From Mobula birostris (Eukaryota), in NCBI RefSeq assembly GCF_030028105.1, contig NC_092391.1, positions 51,867,223 to 51,931,222 of the forward strand: a stretch of 64,000 bases of DNA, in the 5' to 3' direction. The translations under genes and the position numbers were made by a program. Position 1 is the first letter of the stretch. Each line of letters opens with the position of its first letter. Of the stretch, positions 3,466 through 51,289 are shown piece by piece. Under the pieces are notes generated by a model. That model was not told the origin of the DNA, ran no database searches, and saw nothing but the letters and a program-made list of their open reading frames with translations.

Positions 3466-4864
3466 CTTATGCCCAAGTAAAGAAAAAGATGCAGGAAATC
3501 AGAAATAAAAAACACAAAATGCTAGACAAATGCAGTCTGGTCAGAGAGCTGAACCACAAGCTCTACTTTTCCCTCCCACAAATACAGTCTGATCTGCTGA
3601 ATATTTCCAGCATTTATGTTTTGATTTTAAACAATTGTCTTCCTGCACATTTTCTAGCAGATTGATAATCACCTCTTCAGTAAATGAAGAAGCTAGCACA
3701 CAGATACAGCTAGGAATCAGGGAAACAAACACAATGTTAGTCTTCACTGCAAAAATAATAAGTGGGAGGTCTCATTGCAACGGTATGCATGAACACACTG
3801 AGGACCAGACAGAGTCCGGACAAAAGGTCTCAGCCAAAAACATCGCCTGTTGATTCCCCTCCATGACCTGCTGTGTTCCTCCAGCAGATTGTGACTCTAA
3901 ACTTTGTACAGTACAGGAGGGAACGTGCGCTTGTGTTGGTTGTTAAAGAGCAACCCACGCAGAACCTACTATGCACTGATACAAATGGAGGCACTGTTTC
4001 AGTGTTGATGGTCTCTGGCCCACCCAGTTTCTGAGGCAACGAGACTGTGACCTCAACATCCCCGGGTGAAACGATTTCCTCACCAAGCCTCAAAACCTTC
4101 TGCCAAACACTTCCAAGTCTGTGACCTCTTTTGATACAGGAAACAGGTTCCCCGAGTGTCCTTTCAATTCTCGGCACCTCCACCATCTCGCTAAGGCTAC
4201 GCGCCACAGTAAGCCTCAGCCTCGAAAATTCTCAGCACCTCCACCATCTCACCCAGGAAATACTCCACAGAAATCTCAAACCTCAAAAATTCCCAGCACC
4301 CCCACTCAGGCTATGCCCCACAGAAAGCCCCAATATCTACAATTATATATCAGACCTAAATTTTCCAGTCTCAGCAAATTCCTGAAATCTCCTCAGCAGT
4401 CTTCCAACACAATCATATTTTCCCTTCAGCTACAACTCTATGTTGTACTCCGGCTATGGCCAAACTATCAGTCCAAGCTCAGCCTGCCTGCATTATATTC
4501 TACACTGCAGTAAATAAAGTGTTTTGTGCATCTTTGAATGCCTCACTGACCTGACCTGGCATTCTTAAATATTTGTGCACATGTATTTCAAGTGCTCCCT
4601 ATTCACCTACATATTCAACCTGTTTCCCAAACACCCTCATAGGTACATTACCTCTTCAGTGAAAGGTGAAGGTTGCACAAAGGTACAGCAAAGAACAGGG
4701 AGGCAAATGGAATACTGGTCTTCACTGTGGGAGATTTTGTTGCCATGGTTTGCAAGAATGCACGATGATCATGCAGAATCTTGGTCTCACCACACAGCCA
4801 GTGACCGTAAGAACACAAGATATAGGAGCAGAATTAGGTCATTTGACCCATCAAGTCAGCCATT

Positions 4865-5090: not shown

Positions 5091-5540
5091 AGGCAATGGA
5101 AATTTTGTAATTTTACATAAAACACAAGAAACAGGAGCTGCCAACTGCATCTTCAAGGTGGCTCTGCCATTTGTTAAAAACTACAGCTGATCCAATCTTG
5201 ACCTCAACACCACCTTCCTGCAATCTCCCCATTCCACTCGACATTGTAAATGTCTTCCATCTCCTTGCTGAATATATTTAATGACTTTACCTCATCTCTC
5301 TGGCCTCTTACCTCTTCTCTTCACCTGCTCATCACCTCCCCAGTGCTCTCCCCTTTCCCTTTCTCCCATGATTCACTCTTCTCCCATCAGAATCCTTGTT
5401 CAGCCATTTGCCTTTTGCATCCATCAACTCCCAGCTTCTTACTTCAACCCTCCCAACTACCACCCACCTGGCCTCACCTTCTAGCATCCCCCTTCTCCTC
5501 CCCCCACCTTCTCATTCTATTGTCTTCCCCCTCCCTTTCC

Positions 5541-5576
5541 AGTCCTGATGAAGGGTCTCAGCCCGAAACATCGACT
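5541..5576 (+). ncRNA. Minimal hammerhead motif in a PLE 3' remnant (~5290-5645)
   Basis: AGTC-CTGATGA-aGGGTctcaGCCC-GAAA-CA-TC-GACT. Confidence 0.75.
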
Positions 5577-6254
5577 GTTTATTCCTTTCTATAGATGTGG
5601 CATGACCTGCGGAATTCCTCCAGCATTTCATGTGTGTTGCTCTCATAATCCACCCTGACAGCTGCCTGCAGAAGCTCACTTCAATAATCTCTCTCATTCT
5701 CCTATACTCTGGCAAGAATGATTCCAGGATTGAAAGGCAAGGCATGAAGGGATATGGGGAGAAGGCAGGAGGTTGCGGCTGAGGGGGTGGGAATGGATCA
5801 GCCGTGATGAAACGGCAGAGCAGACCTGATGGGCCAAATGGCCTAATTCTGCTCCTGTATCTTTATGTTCTCAAGTACGGGCCTGACCAGCTCAGCTCTT
5901 CAGAATATCCCACTTCTCAGGGTCAGCATAGATACAGTCCCTTTGGAACAACCAACCCATGCAGATCATGGTCCACAACCAGCTAGCTCCTATTTCCCGC
6001 ATTCGGCTCCCGTGCCTCCAAATCTGCCCCTCTATGTACCTATCCAAGTGCTTCTTAAATGATACTATTGTACCAGCCTCAGTCACTTCGCTCCATAGAC
6101 TCACCACCCTCTCTGTGAAGTGGAGGCCCCTCAGGTCCCTTTTAAATCTTTCTCCTCTCACTAGATCCCCCATTGTTTCGTCTCTCCTAACCTGGGGAAA
6201 AGCCTGTTACCATCCGCCTTATGCCTCTGATCTCAGGAACCCTCACTGATTCAA

Positions 6255-9862: not shown

Positions 9863-10615
9863 TTACTGTAGCAACGTGACAAAAGGTCACAATCAGGGTG
9901 GTTAACTCTCTCCTCAGGTCAGTCTGTGACAACATCTCCAATTTGTGCCCATTTCAAATTGATCTCCACAGGATTTATCAGAGACTTGCCTTCCGTGGAT
10001 CAGTTTGGGTCAAAAGTCGATTTTGCGTGTTGCATGCCTCTGTGACATTCCTCATGACAAACCACTAACTCACTATCAGGTAATGCTTTGAGGCTGCAGC
10101 CCAAATTAAATTCATTTATTGGATCGGAGCATGTAAGGGGTTGCTGGAGGCGAGTTTTATCTTTACGCTTGAGTAATGCAGCCAAAAGTGTGCATTGTGA
10201 TCAATCAGGGCAGTGTTGACACCCTGCATCATATGAACACAGCACGTCATAAAATTAAAAGCATCAAACAGTCAGGCACATAGAATTATGCATTCAGTGA
10301 CACCACAACAGCATGGGGAACGGGAGAGGGGCAAATCACATGTTCAAATTCAACAGGAAATTAAAATATCCTTTCATAATCAACTCAAATCCACACTGCA
10401 ACAGAACAAAGGCTCTCAGTGATCACAGGACAGATTCATTTCTTCAGGAACCTGCTCCATTCCATCCCACCAAAAATCCAAAATAAAATTAGAAAAGGAA
10501 TGAAAGAGGTACATGTTCAGATCAGAAACAAATGAGCTCTCCTATCACACAGCATCTGGAAATGGTTCAAATGAGATTCACAGAATGAATATCGAACCGC
10601 CGCAGAGACTCAACT

Positions 10616-11138
10616 CTCCTCAGTGATGGTCGGGACTACTCCCTGGGTAATACGAGAACCTCACCTCCTCAGTGATGGCTGGGACTTCTCTCTGGGTAAT
10701 GCAAGGACCACATCTGCTCAGTGATGGCTTGGACTACTCTCTGGGTAACACAAGTACCACATCTGCTCCATGATGGTTGGGACTGCTCTCTGGGTAATAT
10801 GAGATCACATTTCTTCAGTGATGGGAGGGACTACTCCCTAGGTAATGTGAGAACCATGCCTCATCAGTGATGGCTGGAACTAGTCTCCGGATAATGTGAG
10901 GACTACATCTCCTCAGTGATGGGGGGGACTACTCCCTGGGTAATGCGAGAACCAGGTTTCCTCAGTGAAAGCTGGGACCATTCCCTGAGTAATGAGAGAC
11001 TACATCTCTTCAGTGATGGCTGGAACTACTCCCTGGGTAACACGGGAACTTCATCTCTTCAATGAAGGTTAGGACAACTCCCTAGATAATGTGAAAATCA
11101 CATCTCCTCAGTGATAGCTGGGATTACTCTCTGGGTAG
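10616..11138. repeat. Minisatellite, 49-bp unit x ~10.7
   Basis: Consensus CTCCTCAGTGATGGCTGGGACTACTCCCTGGGTAATGCGAGAACCACAT, head-to-tail with no spacers. Confidence 0.92.
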
Positions 11139-21659: not shown

Positions 21660-22142
21660 CCTAGTAGGTGATGGGGTTACAAGGTTGGTTATCTGCTAGT
21701 TAGTGATGGAGCACAGTAAACAGAGCTATTAGTGAGACACTACAGTCTGTAGGGTTACTATTCAATGGAGCACAAGAGTAAGTTGAATTACTAGTTAGTG
21801 AGGCCCACAATAAACTAGTCCTGACGAAAGGTCTCGGCCTGAAACGTCGACTGTACCTCTTCCTAGAGATGCTGCGTTCACCAGCAACTTTGATGTGTGT
21901 TGCTTGAATTTCCAGCATCTGCAGAATTCCTCGTGTAAACGGGGTTATTATTTAGTGAAGGCAGATAGAAGGCAGGATTACTGTCTAGTGAGGCACACAG
22001 TAAGCGGAGTTACTAGTTATTGAAGGAACCACAGAAGGCGGGTTTACCACAGCAGGAAGGATCACGAGCTAGCGAGGCACTACAGGGGGCAGTGGTACAA
22101 GTCCGTCAATAACACAATAAGTAGGGCTGCTAGTTAGTGAAG
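21660..22142. repeat. Degenerate ~31-bp minisatellite at the start of ATP6V0A2 intron 1, split by a hammerhead mini-insert
   Basis: Recurrent GTTACTAGTTAGTGAGGCACACAGTAA.CGG-like units. Confidence 0.7.
21817..21852 (+). ncRNA. Minimal hammerhead ribozyme heading a 120-nt PLE-derived insert (21816-21935, TSD TAAAC)
   Basis: AGTC-CTGACGA-aAGGTctcgGCCT-GAAA-CG-TC-GACT; the insert is nearly identical to 50194-50325 apart from a 12-nt deletion. Confidence 0.83.
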
Positions 22143-28266: not shown

Positions 28267-29161
28267 AGAAGATGGTGCCTTGCTTGTGTCACATTCATGT
28301 TACTGAGCATAAAAGAATAGCTAGGAAGAAATGCGATGTTAATAGATCGTATCTGCCGCAGGACTTTAAAAGGTCCAAGAACCATCCTACAGAAACCCCA
28401 TAGTCCTGATCCAGTGTCTCGGCCCAAAACACCAACCTGCACCCATGCTGAGTTCTTTCAGTGTTCCAGCACGTACAGTATCTCGGCTTTTCACAACCTC
28501 CTGGGATTTACGCCCAAATTGAGACTAATATTTTTGTTAATGGCTGCCCTTGCCATTGGATATAAAGGGTTCCACAGCCACTACATAGAAATGTCACCAG
28601 AGATGTGAGCAACTGTAGCCCGTTTCCTACATTACACCCATATCTACTTGGTTGCAATGCAATTTATAAATGGTCCTGCAGCTAAGGGAAGTGGTGATAC
28701 AAACAGAGACTTAATTGCTTCATAGATGGAATGGAGGAAAATACAGGGGAATGATTGTAAGATAAAAGAAACATTTTGTCAAGAGAAAGAAGGAAGCAAA
28801 AATCAGACAGGGTTCTTTTTCCCAGAGCAGCAATGGCAAATACCAGAGGACGTCCTTTTAAAAAGGGTGGAAGAAAATTTATGGAGATGTCAGAAGTAGA
28901 TTTTTATCTTACACTGAGATGCCTGGAATGCACTGCTGGATGGTGGTAGAGACAGATACAATAGAGGTATTGTAGAGACTCTTTGATGGGCACATGGATG
29001 TAAGAAAAATGGAGGTTATGGGCTGTGTAAAAGGGAAAGGTTAGATTGATCGTGGAGCAGATTTATACTGATTAGCACAAGATCATTCTAGACCAGTGCT
29101 CAGTTCAAAAGCACGGAAATTAGGTCGACAGAATGCATCAAGATGAATGCATCTTCCTTAC

Positions 29162-29469: not shown

Positions 29470-31690
29470 GTGTGTGTACTGAACCTAGTGGCTGTTGTGT
29501 GTTCCTCATGGCAGATGTTGGGAGTGCTGGGAAACCCAGAGTCTCCCAGGGAACTGCATCTGTGTGAAGTGCATCCGGCTGCAGCTCCTTGAAGACCATG
29601 TTAGGAATCTGGAGCAGCAGCTGGCTGACCTTCAGCTTGTACCGGAGAGTGAGGAGATCTTTGATCAGAGTTACAGGAAGTAGTCACCCCGAAGTTGCAG
29701 GAGGTGAGTGGATGGGTGACTGTCAGGAGAAATGGAAATGTGAATAGGCAGTCAGCGCAGAACGCTTCTGTGGCCATTCCTCTCAATAGCAAGTGTACCG
29801 CTTTGGATACTCTTGTGGGGGATGAACTCCCAGGAGAATGCTATGGAGACCAGATTACTGGCACTGAGCATAAGTCCGTGGTGCAGAAGGGAAAGAGGGA
29901 GAAGAGGGGAGCAGTAGTGACAGGGGACTCAATAGTCAGGAGAACAGACAGGAGATTTTGTGGATGTAAACGGGACACCCAAATAGTATGTTGCCTCCCT
30001 GGTGCCAGGTTCAGGGACGTCTCAGATCACATCCACAGCATTTTGGAGGAGGATAGAGAGCAGCCAGATGTCTTGGTACATATTGGTACCAATGACATAG
30101 GAAGGAAAAGCAAAGAGGTCCTGAAATGAATTTGGAGAACTAGATAGAAAGCTGAGAAGCAGGACCACCAGGATAGTAATTTCTGAATTGCTGCCTGCGC
30201 CACGTACTAGTGAGGGTAGAAACAGAATGAGTTGGCAGATGAATGCATGGCTGAGAAGCTGGTGCAGGAGGTAGTGCTTCAGGTTCTTGGATCACTGTGT
30301 CCTCTTCTGGGGGAGGTATGAACAATTCAAAAGTGATGGGTTGCACCTGAACCCAAGGGGGACCAATATTCTCACAGGCAGGTTTGTTAGAGGTGTTAGG
30401 GAGTGACTAAACTAATTTGGCAGGAGGATGGGAACTGGAGTGAAAGGACTCTGGATAAGACGGATGGGTAAAAAAAAGCAAAGATAGCGTGCAGTCAGGC
30501 TGTCAGGAAGGACATGCAAATGACAAGTCAAAATTGCAGCCAGCACGGTGAGTATCAGTGCATTAGGGATGCAGAATCAAAAGGGGTAGCAAATACAGTA
30601 AAAAGCCCATGATATTGAAGGCAAATTACTGGCAAGGTTAGAGCATTGGCTGATTGGTAGGAGGCAGCGAGCGGGAGTAAAACAATCTTTTTCTGGTTGG
30701 CTGCCAGTGACTTGTGGTGTTCTGCAGGAGTCGGTGTTGGGACCAATACTTTTTATGCTGTATATCAATGACTTAGATAATGGAATAGATGACCTTGTTG
30801 CCAAGTTTGCAGACAATATGAAGACTGGTGGAGGGACAGGTAATGTTGAGGAATCAGGTAGGCTGCAGGAGGACTTAGATTAGGAAAATGGGCAAGTAAG
30901 TGGCAAATGAAATAAATGCATGGCCATGCACTTTGGTAGTAGAAATAAATGTGCAGACTATTTTTAAATGGGGAGAAAATCCAAAAATCTGAAATGCAAA
31001 GGGACTTGGGAGTCCTTGTGCAGAACATCTTAAAGGTTAATTTGCAGGTTGAGTCAGTGGTGAGGAAGGCAAATGTAATGTTAGCATTCATTTCCAGAGG
31101 TCTAGAATACAAGAGCAGAGATATGATGCTGAGGCTTTGTAAGGCATTGGTGAGGCCTCATCTTGAGTACTGAGAGCAGTTTTGGGCTCCTCAGGTAAGA
31201 AAAGATGTGCTAGCATTGGAGAGGGTCCAGAGGAGGTTCAGAAGGATGATTCCAGGAATTAAAGGGATGTCATACGAGGAACGTTTGAGAGCTCTGGGTC
31301 TGTATTCACTGGAACTTAGAAGGATGAGAAGGGATCTCACTGAAACCTTTCAAATGTTGAAAGGCCTAGACATGCTAGATGTGGAAAGGATGTTTCCCAT
31401 GGTGGGGCACAGCCTCAGGATAGAGGGGCATCCATTTAAAAGAGATGCAGAGAAATTTCTTTAGCCAGAGGGTGGTGAACTTGTGGTATTTATTAACACA
31501 GGTAGCTGTGGAGGCCAGGTTGTTGGGTGTATTTAAGGCGGAGCTTGATAGATTCTTGATTGGACACGACATCAAAGGTTACAAGGAGAAGGCCAAGGAG
31601 TGGGGCTGAAGAGGAGAAAAAAAAAGGATCAGCCATGATTGGATGGTGGAGCAGACTCGATGAGCCAAATGGCCTAATTCCTATGTCCTC
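29470..31690 (+). mobile_element. CR1 LINE retaining ORF1 (Zn-finger/leucine zipper + SGNH esterase) fused by a large internal deletion to the RT 3' part
   Basis: CVKCIRLQLLEDHVRNLEQQL; GDSIVR; CLPGAR; VHIGTNDIG; DGLHLN; jumps to mid-RT at ~30600. Confidence 0.88.
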
Positions 31691-32000
31691 TAACAGGTTG
31701 TACAACTGGAGACCTTTAACTATAACAGGCATTACAACTGGAGATCAGTCCTGATGAAGGGTCTTGGCCTGAAACATCGACTGTACTCTTTTCCATTAAT
31801 ACTGTCTGGCTTGCTGAGTTCCTCCAGCATTTTGAATGTGTTGCTTGGATTTCCAGCATCTGCAGATTTTCTCTTGTTTATCTGACTATAACAGGTTGAT
31901 TAACTGGAGAACTTTGACTATAACACGTTGTATAATTGGAAATCTTTGATTCTAACAGGTTGTACAACTGGAGATCTTTGACTATACCAGATTGAATACC
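31690..32000. repeat. ~31-32-bp minisatellite (left remnant at ~29410-29460)
   Basis: TATAACAGGTTGTACAACTGGAGATCTTTGAC units occur on both sides of the CR1 and the PLE mini-insert. Confidence 0.8.
31747..31782 (+). ncRNA. Minimal hammerhead motif heading a ~133-nt PLE-derived insert (31747-31879)
   Basis: AGTC-CTGATGA-AGGgtcttggCCT-GAAA-CA-TC-GACT; stem III palindrome lost (CG to CA). Confidence 0.75.
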
Positions 32001-44564: not shown

Positions 44565-45085
44565 GGCAAGTTTATTGTCATCTGTACGTTACTAGGGACA
44601 TGCACACTTGCAGCAGTATCACGTAAATACGGACAACACACAGAATATAAATTGTACACAAATTATATAAAACTGTTTTCACTGCAAAGAAAAATGGCAA
44701 AACTTCAGACCAAGACCCTTCATCTGGACTGGGTTTATTGCAAGAATGAGCAGAGGCAATAAAAAAAAGAAAACAGAGATATCATTTGTTGGAGGGGGCA
44801 GGGTAGAGAAATGGTTTAGAAAGGAAAAAGAAAAAACAGAAAAAAGTCCATGGTAATGCGCGAGGTTATTAATACTGCTCTTTTGCTGAGGTAGGACTAG
44901 GGCTGTGCAAGTTGGTTGAAGAATCTGATGGTTGTAGGAAAGTAGCTGTTCCTGAACCTGGTGGTGTGGGACTTCAGACATCTGTACCTCCCGCCCAACA
45001 CTAGCAATGAGAAGGGGACATGAGCTGATTGTTGGGGATACTTGAATGATAGGTGCTGCCTTCCTGAAACCTCCTGTAGATGCTG
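44565..45085 (-). mobile_element. Rex1/Babar 3' fragment interrupted by a 123-bp copied patch
   Basis: Minus ORF RKAAPII...; 3' tail at ~44565. Confidence 0.7.
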
Positions 45086-45460: not shown

Positions 45461-46214
45461 GTGATAAACTGCACTATATCCACTACCCTACAGCATCCTG
45501 TGCTCCACACATTGAAATTGCTGTACCTGCTAAAATGCAACAGCCTGGATAGAAAATTAGGCCATCAATAGAAAACAGTAGCAGTAAAATGTGATTTTCC
45601 ACATTATAGGAAGTTTACTGTAAATTTGGAGTACAACAACTGCAAGGACAATAAAGGCTCAAGATGGTAGATTGGGTAAATTGGTGGGAGATTCAATTTA
45701 AAGGTGAAAAAATGAAACTTTTCACTTATTGCAACGCACATAAAATGCTAGAGGAACTCAGCAAATCAGGCAGTATCTATGGAAATGAACAAACAGTCAA
45801 AACTTCAGACCAAGACCCTTCATCTGGACTGGGTTTATTGCAAGAATGAGCAGAGACAATAAAAAAAAGAACACAGAGATATCATTTGTTGGAGAGGGCA
45901 GGGTAGAGAAATGATTTAGAAGTCACATGGAATCCTGGCACTATAAACAGAGGCATGGTGCTCAACAACATGGAACAATAAACCATTACAAACACAGAAG
46001 TAATGAATCCTGCCTGAACATCATACTTTATTATGAAGACACAAAAGAAATTGAATAAAAGAACTACAGGGATGATGGTATTTACTTATCGGTATAGATG
46101 AGAGGTGCCAGAGCAAGTGGATAAGGCAAGTACAATAACAATTTTTAAAATACAGTTGGATGGCTACATTAATTAGAAAAGTTTAGAAAGTTGTGGGCTG
46201 GTAAATAGGACTAA

Positions 46215-47521
46215 CTAGACAACGGGGTGACCCATTGGGGCACCCTTTCAGAGAAGGGTAGTGCAGTCTGATGTGACCAGAATGAACGTTAAGTTTTCCT
46301 GAATGCTATTGGCATCGCTTTGCTTTGGAAATTGAAGAAAACCTCAGTTTATTAAAGAAGAACGACGCGTAGCAAAGCAAATATAGCTCCTCCTCGTTTA
46401 ACGAAGGACACTTTTGATGGCATCATTTCTGGTCAATCTGCCACCCTTGTGCCTCTTGTTGTCATTCTGGAGACATGCAGTCCTTTCATCCACCATCTCT
46501 TCATCTCTTCTGCTGTTTATTCTTTGTCTCTGATCTTGGAGATGTGCATTTTTCTGCTCCTTTGTCTCTTCCTCTCTCTTCCTCCTGTGCCTGTTTTTGT
46601 CATTCTGGAGACGTGCAGCCCTTTCATCCCCCGTCTCCTCATCTCTTCTGCTTGTTTGTTGTTTGTCTCCGATCCTGGAGAGGTGCACTTTTCAGCTCCT
46701 TTGTCTCTTTGTCTCTCTTTCTTCTATGCTAGTTGTTGTCATTTTGGAGACGTGCATGCATCTCCTCCTCTGTCTCTTCTTCTCTCATCTCTTTTGTCCT
46801 GACTCTGATCCTGGAGTCGTGTGGCCCTGGCCTCACCCAGTTCTTGTTCTCTCCCTCTCCTTGCCACTTCCCAACATCGCTTGGCGTCATCTCTTGACCA
46901 TATTGTCCCCTTCTCTTTCCATGCGGCATAATTAGGTTGACCATATTTTTTTACCCTAATGCTGGGTAGAAGATACGAAGCAGTAACACCAAAGCCTCCA
47001 AGATGCTGATTATTCTTGATGATGTGGTTGGCGTTCTCCTAAATGGACGTGATATAGTCACCACTGTCCTTTGACTGCAATAAAGGGTTTGATGGGTGTC
47101 TCGAAGTACGTCATTACAATAATTACTTATCTCTTATTGATGGGTCTCAGTTTGATCTGTCCCAATCCTGCACATGCTGATGGTGATTAGCAGAAAGTGA
47201 CCGCTCGAAATAGAGCTGCCCTGCCCTTTGGCTCCTGTAGGTGTTGCTTCTGAGGCTGGCCATGCGCATGCGTCGTGGTGTTGCATCGCAGTTTCCGTCA
47301 TGGCTGACATCGGCTCTTGGGTGAAAGCAGGGCTGTTGATTTTGGCGAGTGAGCGACTTTATACGAACATATAACCCTGAACTTTGCCTGCATTCTGTAA
47401 GTTGGCGCATTTTAAGTTGACTTAGCCAAAAATAGTGCTGCTGTAATGCACCATTTGCGCTAATTGGAGGTCACAAACAGACAACTAGAGCATGAGAGTT
47501 TTAGCAGTATGTAGATATAGA
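46215..47521 (-). mobile_element. Non-autonomous Helitron (1307 bp) with complete termini and STPR-like repeat remnant
   Basis: 5' TC (TCTATATCTACATACT...), 3' hairpin GGGTGCCCCAATGGGTCACCC followed by CTAG, inserted between A and T with no TSD; splits a CR1 3' tail; 69-bp repeats encode R.EET..ER.ARLQ.D units. Confidence 0.85.
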
Positions 47522-47933: not shown

Positions 47934-48193
47934 CTGAAATGAACAGAGAACATTTCACCATTCTGTACAGTGGACAGGTTTCATTTATTTAATTATTTTA
48001 TTGACGTAAGGGTGGAATAGGCCCCTTTGAGCCACACCACCCAGTAATCTCCCAATTTAACCCTGGCCTAAACACTAGACAATTTACCAATCAGTACGTC
48101 TTTGGACTGTGGGAGGAAACTCACGTAGTCACAGGAAGAATGTACAAACTCCTTATGGGCAGCAGTGGGAATTGAACCCAGGTCACCTGTTTA

Positions 48194-50325
48194 CCCCTCA
48201 ATCGTGACCCCACCAAGGAGCACCAGGCCATTGTCTCCCACACCATCACCGACTTCATCCGCTCAGGGGATCTCCCATCCACTGCTACCAACCTTATAGT
48301 TTCCACACCCCGCACTTCCCGTTTCTACCTCCTACCCAAGATCCACAAACCTGCCTGTCCTGGCCGACCTATTGTCTCAGCTTGCTCCTGCCCCACCGAA
48401 CTCATTTCTGCATACCCCGACACAGTTTTATCACCCCTTGCTCAATCCCTTCCGACCTATGTTCGTGACACTTCTCACGCTCTTAAACTTTTCGATGATT
48501 TTAAGTTCCCTGGCCCCCACCGCTTTATTTTCACCATGGATGTCCAGTCCTTATATACTTCCATCCCAAATCAGGAAGGTCTCAAAGCTCTACGCTTCTT
48601 TTTGGATTCCAGACCTAATCAGTTCCCCTCTACCACCACTCTGCTCCGTCTAGCGGAATTAGTCCTGACTCTTAATAATTTCTCCTTTGGCTCCTCCCAC
48701 TTCCTCCAAACTAAAGGTGTAGCTATGGGCACCCGTATGGGTCCTAGCTATGCCTGCCTTTTTGTTGGGTTTGTGGAACAATCTATGTTCCATGCCTATT
48801 CTGGTATCTGTCCCCCACTTTTCCTTCGCTACATCGACGACTGCATTGGCGCTGCTTCCTGCACGCATGCAGAACTCGTTGACTTCATTAACTTTGCCTC
48901 CAACTTTCACCCTGCCCTCAAGTTTACCTGGTCCATTTCCGACACCTCCCTCCCCTTTCTAGATCTTTCTGTCTCTGTCTCTGGAGACAGCTTATCCACT
49001 GATGTCTACTATAAGCCTACTGACTCTCACAGCTATCTGGACTATTCCTCTTCTCACCCTGTCTCTCGCAAAAACGCCATCCCCTTCTCGCAATTCCTCC
49101 GTCTCCGCCACATCTGCTCTCAGGATGAGGCTTTTCATTCTAGGACGAGGGAGATGTCTTCCTTTTTTAAAGAAAGGGGCTTCCCTTCCTCCACTATCAA
49201 CTCTGCTCTTAAACACATCTCCCCCATTTCACGTACATCTGCTCTCACTCCATCCTCCCGCCACCCCACTAGGAATAGGGTTCCCCTGGTCCTCACCTAC
49301 CACCCCACCAGCCTCCCGGTCCAACATATTATTCTCCGTAACTTCCGCCACCTCCAACGGGATCCCACCACTAAGCACATCTTTCCCTCTCCCCCTCTCT
49401 CTGCATTCCGCAGGGATCGCTCCCTACACAATTCCCTTGTCCATTCGTCCCCCCATCCCTCCCCACTGATCTCCCTCCTGGCACTTATCCGTGTAAGCAG
49501 AACAAGTGCTACACATGCCCTTACACTTCCTCCCTTACCACCATTCAGGGCCCCAAACAGTCCTTCCAGGTGAGGCGACACTTCACCTGTGAGTCGGCTG
49601 GGGTGATATACTGCATCCGGTGCTCCCGATGTGGCCTTTTATATATTGGCGAGACCCAACGCAGACTGGGAGACCGCTTTGCTGAACATCTACGCTCTGT
49701 CCGCCAGAGAAAGCAGGATCTCCCAGTGGCCACACATTTTAATTCCACATCCTATTCCCATTCTGACATGTCTATCCACGGCCCCCTCTACTGTAAAGAT
49801 GAAGCCACACTCAGGTTGGAGGAACAACACCTTATAATCCGTCTGGGTAGCCTCCAACCTGATGGCATGAACATCGACTTCTCTAACTTCCGCTAAGGCC
49901 CCACCTCCCCCTCGTACCCCATCTGTTACTCATTTTTATGCACACATTCTTTCTCTCACTCTCCTTTTTCTCCCTCTGTCCCTCTGAATATACCTCTTGC
50001 CCATCCTCTGGGTCCCCCCCCCCAACCTTGTCTTTCTTCCCGGACCTCCTGTCCCATGATCCTCTCGTATCCCCTTTTGCCTATCACCTGTCCAGCTCTT
50101 GGCTCTATCCCTCCCCCTCCTGTCTTCTCCTATCATTTTGGATCTCCCTCTCCCCCTCCAACTTTCAAATCCCTTACTCACTCTTCCTTCAGTTAGTCCT
50201 GACGAAGGGTCTCGGCCTGAAACGTCGACTGCACCTCTTCCTACAGATGCTGCTTGGCCTGCTGCGTTCACCAGCAACTTGATGTGTGTTGCTTGAATTT
50301 CCAGCATCTGCAGAATTCCTGTTGT
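48194..50325 (+). mobile_element. Penelope-like retroelement (Neptune-type: RT, Cys knuckle, GIY-YIG), 5'-truncated and very young
   Basis: Open frame from the 5' junction: FYLLPKIHK..PGRPIVS, DVQSLYT, GVAMGT, RYIDD. One frameshift in a C-run at ~49450, then CKQNKCYTC and GVIYCIRC..CGLLYIGET..R. TSD TCACCTGTTTA at 48183-48193 and 50326-50336. Confidence 0.93.
50195..50230 (+). ncRNA. Minimal type I hammerhead ribozyme in the Penelope-like 3' region
   Basis: AGTC-CTGACGA-AGGgtctcggCCT-GAAA-CG-TC-GACT: intact core, stem I AGTC/GACT, palindromic ACGT stem III; predicted cleavage after C50226. Confidence 0.85.
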
Positions 50326-51289
50326 TCACCTGTTTAAAAGTGTGTGCTAACCACTATGCTACCGTGCCACCTCAAATTCTGTTGCCAGCTGATTAACCTG
50401 CCCTGTACTTACACTTCCTAAAACCCTCAGGATTTTGAATAAAGTTTTTCAATCCTCATCCAATATTTTCTTGACGAAAGGGACGAACTCCTGCTTCTCC
50501 AGTCTCGACATATAACTGAAGGCCCTCTTCACAGTGCTCCAGCTGTGGTAAATCTAATGCTCAGTGAAGTGAATTCCTTGCCCTTGATGCATCATGGTGA
50601 GCTGAATGCCTGTATCTGTGTTACCTTATACATGTTTAAAATTATGACAGGCATGGATAGGTGAATGGTAATAGTCTTGATCTCCACAGGTGATGGACAT
50701 GCCAGCACTGTGACACGCTGCTAGTGTTATATTGAAGAGAGCAGCCCAAAAGGTCCAGCCTCAGCTTCACAGTTGTGTTGGATTAGGATCAGGATCATCA
50801 AACACTAACAGTACTAACACATTAAGACAAGACTCAGTCACCCACATGGACTGAAATTTTAAGCAACAACAGTATAGTAATGGAGTTGTGTGAAGCAGGG
50901 TCAGGAGTACCAGTCTAACACTTACCAGTGTTAAAATATCCTTATTCAAGTGATGGTGGATATAGGTTACTTGAACATTCAACAGTTTACTTTCATTAAA
51001 AAGCCTGCAGATTGCTATGGGTTTTTATATTTTTAGCTACACATCACTGCAAGCATCAACCATCAGGCTCTTGTACCAGTGAATAACTTCACTCACCCCA
51101 TCACTGAACTGTTCCCAAAACCTATGTACTCACTTTCAAAGACTCTTCATCACATGTTCTCAATATTTATTACTTATTTATTCTTATTTTTATTTTTTCT
51201 CAGGTCAAGATGATAAAATATGAATTTGAGGCACAGCCAAGCACACTCAATTCTCAATTGCTAGGAACTTGCGGACTACTCTAGTGGAT

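What the first reader, a model, noticed from the sequence alone, without database searches (positions are those of the whole stretch)
21816..21935. Family of ~100-135-nt retro-inserts that begin exactly at a hammerhead ribozyme
Seen in sequence: this 120-nt insert (TSD TAAAC) is almost identical to the 3' end of the young Penelope-like element at 50194-50325. It starts one base before stem I of an intact minimal hammerhead. Other short copies also start at or near that AGTC stem: 31747-31879 (+), ~45733-45831 (-), and degenerate ones at ~3813 and ~28402 (+). Random 5' truncation would not repeatedly stop at the same ~2 nt. The boundary lies ~30 nt upstream of the predicted GUC cleavage site, so simple self-cleavage does not explain it. 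Established: PLEs carry minimal hammerheads thought to cleave as dimers. Inference: these are either a discrete ribozyme-headed minimal retroelement mobilised in trans by the Neptune-type RT/GIY-YIG, or a strong RT stop or template-switch point at the ribozyme. This is the best candidate here for an under-described system.
Basis: partly seen in the sequence, partly recalled or inferred. Interest (0 to 1): 0.72.

Follow-up and report, generated by a model that had tools for sequence, protein, structure and literature searches.

The report
Penelope stubs stop at ribozyme edge
The 120-base insert is the cut-short end of an ordinary Penelope-type jumping gene, not a separate mini-element; about a quarter of young copies begin at the front edge of its small hammerhead RNA motif rather than at the motif's predicted cut site, likely because the RNA being copied starts there.

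Summary
The insert, its 5-nt duplication and its minimal hammerhead are real. It is the 3' end (pseudo-LTR plus tail) of a very abundant Neptune/Nematis-type Penelope-like element. The 5'-end peak is real genome-wide: 27 of 98 copies picked only by their tail begin between -10 and +8 (core C = 0; scan test 0 of 20,000). Junction-tag counts are 1,926 at -4 against 75-104 at -13/-24 and 288 at the predicted cut site. The peak is about 20 nt wide, not 2, and 50 of 77 copies read through it. No separate mini-element: short copies carry no private variants, the insert's 12-nt deletion occurs mostly in long copies (23 of 30), and no retrozyme-type arrays were seen. Many stubs have an inverted second arm that starts at the second tail site (39 of 42), inside one 10-16 nt duplication. 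Best reading (inferred): priming at both tail sites on both strands, then run-off at an RNA 5' end near -4. No RNA data could test this, and a cap-G signal was weak and confounded. The scan noted this pattern before, in this and other genomes; I found no paper reporting the peak.

The parts
21816..21935 (+). Short 5'-truncated copy of the element's 3' end (-5 to the long tail end), with a 12-nt deletion between GCTGC direct repeats
21811..21815 (+). Left target-site duplication TAAAC
   Evidence: flank is a degenerate ~32-nt repeat whose unit is interrupted here
21936..21940 (+). Right target-site duplication TAAAC
21817..21852 (+). Minimal type I hammerhead: stem I AGTC/GACT, core CTGACGA at 21821, stem II with one unpaired base before it, palindromic ACGT in place of stem III; predicted cut 21848/21849
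   Evidence: architecture as in PMC4209133; cleavage not tested; no Rfam hit
48194..50325 (+). Young 5'-truncated Penelope-like element (RT, CX4CxxC linker, GIY-YIG; frame broken), 3' UTR, hammerhead at 50195-50230, tail; 11-nt duplication at 48183-48193 and 50326-50336
31747..31879 (+). Short copy of an older family, starts at -4/-5, inside a ~32-bp tandem repeat
45733..45832 (-). Short copy of an older family, starts at about -6, ends at the short tail site, 7-nt duplication, damaged core
44698..44821 (-). Local 124-bp duplicate (96.8%) of 45798-45921 holding the 5' part of that copy; not an independent insertion
3813..3886 (+). Degenerate short copy starting at -4
28401..28443 (+). Degenerate short copy starting at about -5
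5330..5641 (+). Older-family copy that reads through the hammerhead into the pyrimidine-rich 3' UTR (counter-example; 5' limit approximate)

Best explanation
These inserts are 5'-truncated ends of a Neptune/Nematis-type Penelope-like retrotransposon whose 5' ends pile up at the front edge of its minimal hammerhead, likely because the element's reverse transcriptase starts inside the RNA at the tail and runs off the RNA's own 5' end, predicted to be a transcription start at about -4. Steps. (1) Shown: copies end 3' at one of two tail sites, about +95 or +128. (2) Shown: in head-to-head insertions one arm carries the long tail, the other starts at the short site, and one 10-16 nt duplication flanks both. 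Inferred: both nicked strands are primed in one event, one at each site. (3) Shown: both arms, and simple inserts, stop preferentially at -10..+8 (mode -3/-4), not at the cut site. Inferred: the template is mostly uncut and begins there. (4) Inferred: when the cDNA is not transferred to the matching sequence at the RNA's 3' end, or to a longer RNA, it is trimmed and joined to the target (a simple stub like 21816) or to the other arm (a hairpin stub). Successful transfer gives the longer copies and partial tandems. The stubs are probably dead-end products.
For: Peak: 27 of 98 consecutive tail-selected copies, hazard 2.3% per nt against 0-0.7 elsewhere, scan test 0 of 20,000. It also shows in 12 of the 46 non-inverted copies still running at +8, in 13 of 46 young copies from 89 evenly spaced 10-kb stretches, and in 9 of 30. 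Genome-wide counts of two purines plus 23 element bases: -24 104, -13 75, -8 441, -4 1,926, +15 237, +28 288, +44 99; -3 3,164 with a looser tag. The peak recurs in two older families with other upstream sequence (about 6 and 9 of 30, by eye), where the upstream hairpin is weak (-5.6 vs -10.5 kcal/mol in one copy each). Repeated returns to -4/-5 within single insertions: L379 has three 73-nt units and L387 52-nt units; other direct re-starts. YYAGTCC at -6..0 fits the pyrimidine-A initiator pattern (recalled consensus, no call). The ORF start lies about 170 nt downstream in tandem junctions. Internal priming at two tail sites, nicking and extension of both strands, and insertion independent of ribozyme cleavage were shown in vitro for Anolis PAc (PMC11167929, parts 1-2 read). 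Arm 2 starts at +81..+103 in 39 of 42 pairs and often runs beyond arm 1's end, so it is not a fold-back copy of arm 1.
Against: No RNA 5' end was observed; only assembled contigs were available. A cap-derived extra G is at most weak: 52% G vs 48% A before A(-4), against 43% expected and 44 of 100 at -8. About 13 of 30 such G junctions abut another element piece that supplies the G. None of 4 tandem or full-length copies has its 5' pLTR starting at -4. In D. virilis the start lies about 120 nt upstream of the ribozyme and an intron ends at helix I (PMC2377424 passages and section 15; PMC4209133). The hammerhead is rich in inverted repeats that favour joints. Ends extend to -8 and -10. The -4 and -3 patterns also count older families while the control patterns are mostly young-family, so the fold values are inflated (roughly six in ten listed -4 rows have the young spelling, by eye). 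L379 and L387 were picked by a -4 pattern and could be later DNA duplications.
Confidence: 0.55

Rival explanations
1. The template continues upstream. The enzyme stalls or falls off at the ribozyme's 5' edge because of RNA structure (the long monomer hairpin -5..+32, the alternative hairpin -19..+10 with its loop at -6..-1, or a ribozyme dimer tethering two templates), and the motif's inverted repeats then supply the joints.
For: Both hairpins are predicted, and two 39-mers co-fold. Many inverted joints use AGTC/GACT, TCAG/CTGA or GTCGAC microhomology. 50 of 77 copies read through. Tandem 5' pLTRs start at scattered places.
Against: A polymerase moving 3' to 5' along the template would meet these stems at +32 or +10, yet 0 of 77 first arms end in +9..+24. 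Simple inserts, which need no arm-to-arm homology, show the peak too (12 of 46). The alternative hairpin is weak in an older family that still shows the peak.
Confidence: 0.25
2. The edge is a 3' splice site (branch-like TACTAAC/TACTCAC, pyrimidine tract, CAG at -9..-7 and TAG at -5..-3), and splicing or a splicing intermediate creates the boundary, as the D. virilis intron ends at helix I.
For: Upstream contexts look like an acceptor (consensus recalled). The intron end maps to the 5' end of helix I in D. virilis (PMC4209133). An exon 1 ending in G or AG would mimic starts at -3/-4.
Against: No spliced junction to an element-derived exon followed by GT among 158 distinct hammerhead starts (tested against 4 copies, exact suffix of 9 nt or more). 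None among the joints shown for 4 contig sets (191 rows not shown). In simple stubs the duplication abuts the start within 0-5 nt in most cases read.
Confidence: 0.1
3. The short copies are an independent non-autonomous element (SINE- or retrozyme-like) headed by the ribozyme and mobilised in trans.
For: Many thousands of copies share nearly the same start. One site (+19) differs in frequency between short and long copies (C in 1 of 30 vs 14 of 41, p 0.002 before correction for 12 sites). Two small tandem stutters exist.
Against: No variant is private to short copies, and subfamily variants at +33 and +45 occur in both in like proportion. All 30 nearest relatives of the insert carry its 12-nt deletion, and 23 of them are long. 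Ends vary at both sides. 3 of 30 peak stubs run into the sequence that follows the pLTR in full elements. In PAc the RNA must extend about 55 nt beyond the start site, which stubs lack. Head-to-head neighbours outnumber same-strand ones 27 to 7.
Confidence: 0.07

Closest known systems
Endonuclease-positive Penelope-like elements, Neptune/Nematis type: 5'-truncated, partial-tandem and inverted insertions with a one-sided 30-40 bp tail (PMC8557442, passages; PMC3846280, passages)
   Same: RT, CX2-5CxxC linker and GIY-YIG in one ORF; partial tandems; adjacent inverted 5'-truncated copy; tail at one end only; duplications around the whole unit; solo pLTRs mentioned.
   Different: The passages read report no pile-up of 5' ends at the ribozyme edge. 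They explain inversions by self-priming on an antisense template or by endonuclease resolution, whereas the arms here fit priming at both tail sites.
Anolis PAc (Poseidon) internal initiation in vitro (PMC11167929, parts 1-2 of 4; supplement text search found nothing, figures not held)
   Same: Ribozyme just before the ORF start, two start sites that define the tail, both strands nicked and extended, ribozyme cleavage dispensable.
   Different: Different clade. PAc showed no strand difference between the two sites in vitro, whereas genomic pairs here are long plus short in 39 of 42. 5' ends were not mapped in the text read.
Minimal hammerheads of metazoan PLE pLTRs (PMC4209133, parts 1-2 of 4)
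   Same: Conserved core, short helix I, unpaired base before helix II, palindromic 15.2-16.2 positions, mostly single motifs in truncated copies.
   Different: That paper proposes cleavage and circular templates, which would put ends at the cut site; here ends at -4 outnumber those at +28 about 7 to 1.
Non-LTR retrozymes (PMC7229834, passages; bioRxiv 10.64898/2026.07.22.740005, parts 1-3 of 5)
   Same: Non-coding, pLTR-related, hammerhead-bearing short sequences.
   Different: Retrozymes are tandem arrays of 150-450 bp units that yield circular RNAs. These are dispersed monomers or head-to-head pairs with duplications.
Retroviral minus-strand strong-stop DNA and L1 twin priming (recalled, no call)
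   Same: Internal priming near the RNA's 5' end with run-off and strand transfer (proposed here); two nicks primed in one event.
   Different: Primer is the nicked target, not a tRNA. The arms overlap in sequence and start at two fixed sites, unlike L1 twin priming.

Membership tests
EN+ Penelope-like element, Neptune/Nematis type (parent) | RT followed by C-terminal GIY-YIG in one ORF | tested here: met
   RVT_1 (below curated cut-off, E 4e-5) and GIY-YIG (above cut-off); order
EN+ Penelope-like element, Neptune/Nematis type (parent) | CX2-5CxxC linker between RT and endonuclease | tested here: met
   CKQNKCYTC in the window ORF; feature from PMC8557442
EN+ Penelope-like element, Neptune/Nematis type (parent) | Partial tandems forming pLTRs, inverted 5'-truncated copy, one-sided tail | tested here: met
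Neptune clade specifically | RT phylogeny groups with Neptune, not Nematis | not tested
   No reference proteins fetched, no tree built
Minimal PLE hammerhead | CUGANGA and GAAA core, helices I and II, palindromic stem III remnant | tested here: met
Minimal PLE hammerhead | Self-cleavage as a dimer | not testable with these tools
   Bench assay needed; only a small excess of ends at +28 (288 vs 99-237 at neighbours), many with stem I microhomology
Non-LTR retrozyme | Tandem array of two or more units, each with a full ribozyme | tested here: not met
   The insert is a monomer; 2 of 61 arrays (period 40 or more) in 395 loci hold the core, both 3-unit stutters inside one insertion
Non-LTR retrozyme | Linear and circular monomer RNAs | not testable with these tools
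   Only contigs were available
SINE-like non-autonomous family | Own lineage with diagnostic variants and fixed ends | tested here: not met
   sample of 30 short and 41 long copies

The most novel reading that the evidence does not exclude
Penelope-like elements integrate by a two-headed reaction: a reverse-transcriptase dimer primes both nicked strands at the two tail sites, makes about 100- and 135-nt strong-stop cDNAs to a capped 5' end whose first 36 bases are the hammerhead, and must then strand-transfer through the terminal repeat as retroviruses do. The stubs, hairpins and partial tandems are the failed and repeated transfers.
Probability: 0.4. Interest if true: 0.7.

Novelty: new member of a known kind. 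Interest (0 to 1): 0.45.

Why it matters
How Penelope-like elements integrate, why they form partial tandems and inverted ends, and what their hammerhead does are open questions in the papers read. This genome holds tens of thousands of young insertion events whose ends give concrete predictions: where the RNA begins, that the template is mostly uncut, and that the two known start sites are used on opposite strands of one insertion. The insert itself is an inert fragment. It should be annotated as a truncated Penelope end, not as a new SINE or retrozyme.

Tried and rejected
Rfam scan of the window: no hammerhead family matched (4 chance hits); the motif was identified by pattern and folding. 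RNA evidence: no holder on record as RNA was listed, and the laid contigs cannot show starts, so this is no evidence either way. Empty allele of the 21816 site: flanks not covered. Tandem Repeats Finder did not call the degenerate flank repeat. Cap-derived extra G: weak and confounded, not accepted. Spliced junctions: none found. The 12-nt deletion as a lineage marker: rejected. Self-cleavage as the cause of the boundary: rejected, since the peak is 30 nt upstream of the cut. Fold-back of one cDNA as the general origin of inverted arms: rejected, because arm 2 often extends past arm 1's end. Arm-length correlation: not significant in the truncated range tested (rho 0.29, p 0.06). The arms share subfamily variants (106 of 118 site pairs, permutation 0 of 5,000), but same-era activity could explain that. 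Alignment artefact from the low-complexity upstream region: rejected for young copies, whose upstream aligns at over 90% when present and whose stubs carry duplications. Literature searches for the peak found no report of it; subscription papers and supplementary figures (notably Fig. S2 of PMC11167929) were not visible and may show it.

Full report
Coordinates. Position 0 is the C of the hammerhead core CTGACGA (window 50199 in the young element, 21821 in the insert). Stem I's 5' strand AGTC is -4..-1, and the predicted cut lies between +27 and +28.

The observation. The insert 21816-21935 lies between two TAAAC pentamers. It aligns to 50194-50320 at 87.5%, with a 12-nt deletion between GCTGC repeats. 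It begins at -5 and has an intact minimal hammerhead architecture. Rfam has no matching model. One window copy (5330-5641) reads through the motif.

The parent. 48194-50325 is a 5'-truncated element with an 11-nt duplication. It encodes RT, a CX4CxxC linker and GIY-YIG, the Neptune/Nematis arrangement of PMC8557442; no tree was built. Longer copies have an ORF starting about 170 nt downstream of the core. Three are partial tandems whose 5' pLTR starts at about -150, -520 and -1460. The genome (4.0 Gb) has 31,411 exact matches to a 35-mer of the young tail and 83,043 to a 25-mer at +20..+44. 169 hits of all ages were found in 890 kb of evenly spaced stretches.

Is there a peak? I took the first 100 places, chosen only by +88..+122 and all from the start of contig C1, and analysed 98 (the last two were not fetched). 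27 of 98 begin in -10..+8, 21 in +25..+87, none in +9..+24, 9 in -60..-11, and the rest are spread to beyond -990. The hazard is 2.3% per nt in the peak and 0-0.7% elsewhere; a scan test under constant hazard gave 0 of 20,000. Other samples agree: 13 of 46 young copies from the spaced stretches (123 older or weak hits left out) and 9 of 30 from a search with +33..+126. Genome-wide I counted junction tags, two purines where the element has two pyrimidines followed by 23 element bases: -24 104, -13 75, -8 441, -4 1,926, +15 237, +28 288, +44 99; at -3, 3,164 with a tag about 1.4 times looser. The patterns differ in degeneracy and family coverage, so the 20-fold contrast is an upper figure; a contrast above 10-fold remains if only young-spelled rows are counted (by eye). 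Two older families also show starts at the edge (about 6 and 9 of 30, by eye). So the peak is real, centred on -3/-4, about 20 nt wide, and passed by 50 of 77 copies.

Not a separate element. All 30 nearest relatives of the insert carry the 12-nt deletion, on more than one upstream variant, and 23 of 30 extend beyond -30. Among 30 short and 41 long copies no variant is private to short ones; only +19 differs in frequency. Three peak stubs run on into the sequence that follows the pLTR in full elements. Of 61 tandem arrays in 395 loci, 2 contain the core; both are 3-unit stutters inside one insertion. The retrozyme definition (tandem units; PMC7229834 passages, bioRxiv 10.64898/2026.07.22.740005 parts 1-3) is not met.

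Anatomy of the insertions. 3' ends fall at about +95 or +128. About half of the 98 copies have an inverted arm directly upstream. Among 42 pairs analysed, that arm starts at +81..+103 in 39 and at the long tail in 1; arm 1 was selected for the long tail. One duplication flanks the pair (57 of 61 duplications are 10-16 nt). Arm 2 often extends further upstream than arm 1, so it is not a fold-back copy, and its own end also clusters near the edge (18 of 42 in -9..+7). The inverted copy and one-sided tail are described (PMC8557442, PMC3846280 passages). PMC11167929 shows that the tail is the interval between two internal start sites, that both strands are extended, and that ribozyme cleavage is dispensable in vitro. 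The inference is that both sites are used in one event, on opposite strands.

Why the edge? Cleavage would put ends at +28; these are about 7-fold rarer than at -4, and many use stem I microhomology. A structural block should act at the 3' side of a stem (+32 or +10), where ends are scarce. A physical RNA end near -4 explains the mode, the downstream shoulder from trimming, the near-symmetric hairpins, and repeated returns to -4/-5 within one insertion. YYAGTCC fits an initiator (recalled). Against this reading: no RNA start could be observed; the extra-G signal is 52% against 43-44% and is confounded by arm overlap; no tandem copy starts at -4 (0 of 4); and in D. virilis the start is about 120 nt upstream, with an intron ending at helix I (PMC2377424, PMC4209133). 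The upstream sequence here also resembles a splice acceptor, but no spliced junction was found in 158 starts. I give run-off 0.55, structure 0.25, splicing 0.10 and a separate element 0.07.

Novelty. The element, the ribozyme type, truncation, inversion and tail are known. Eight library searches found no report of the 5'-end peak or of the long-plus-short pairing read as twin priming; subscription papers and supplementary figures were not visible. The scan's own notes record the same pattern in this and other genomes. They are not independent support; my start-site reading was noted, before those look-ups. Verdict: a real, quantifiable clue to Penelope integration carried by ordinary dead-end fragments.

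Noticed in passing
L200 and L201 (G000 C23:68.94 Mb and C3:102.25 Mb): Two near-full-length copies both begin at about +152/+153, just before the ORF start and just downstream of the long tail site; L198 begins at about +174, and L284 holds a +162..+198 piece. This could be a second stop where the enzyme returns to the protein-bound start region after one full unit.
   Followed up: partly
L379, L387, L393 (G000 C1): Head-to-tail stutters of 73, 52 and about 12 nt that each restart at -4/-5 inside one insertion; repeated template jumps, a small circle or later DNA duplication.
   Followed up: partly
window 50172-50196 and equivalents: Upstream of the ribozyme the sequence resembles a 3' splice site (TACTAAC/TACTCAC, pyrimidine tract, CAG then TAG) and can also pair with the core in an alternative hairpin.
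   Followed up: partly
sample: Long copies show more CpG decay than peak stubs (for example +15 A in 6 of 41 vs 1 of 30; +67 A in 7 of 41 vs 1 of 30); not significant singly, may reflect age or methylation.
   Followed up: no
L197:2700-2830 and L196:6375-6480: A short copy starting at about +5 is inserted, inverted, inside the RT of a full-length copy of its own family (L197); a simple stub starting at about -7 with a 12-nt duplication lies about 1 kb upstream of the tandem copy in L196.
   Followed up: no
window 21790-22045 and 31688-31998: Two of the short copies sit in degenerate ~32-nt tandem repeats.
   Followed up: no
window 44698-44821 / 45798-45921: Local 124-bp duplication (96.8%) that copies the 5' part of the 45733-45832 stub with its flank.
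   Followed up: partly
window 46440-46830 (-) and 10604-11137: Degenerate tandem repeats of about 138 and 98 nt; the first is purine-rich on the minus strand and may be coding.
   Followed up: no
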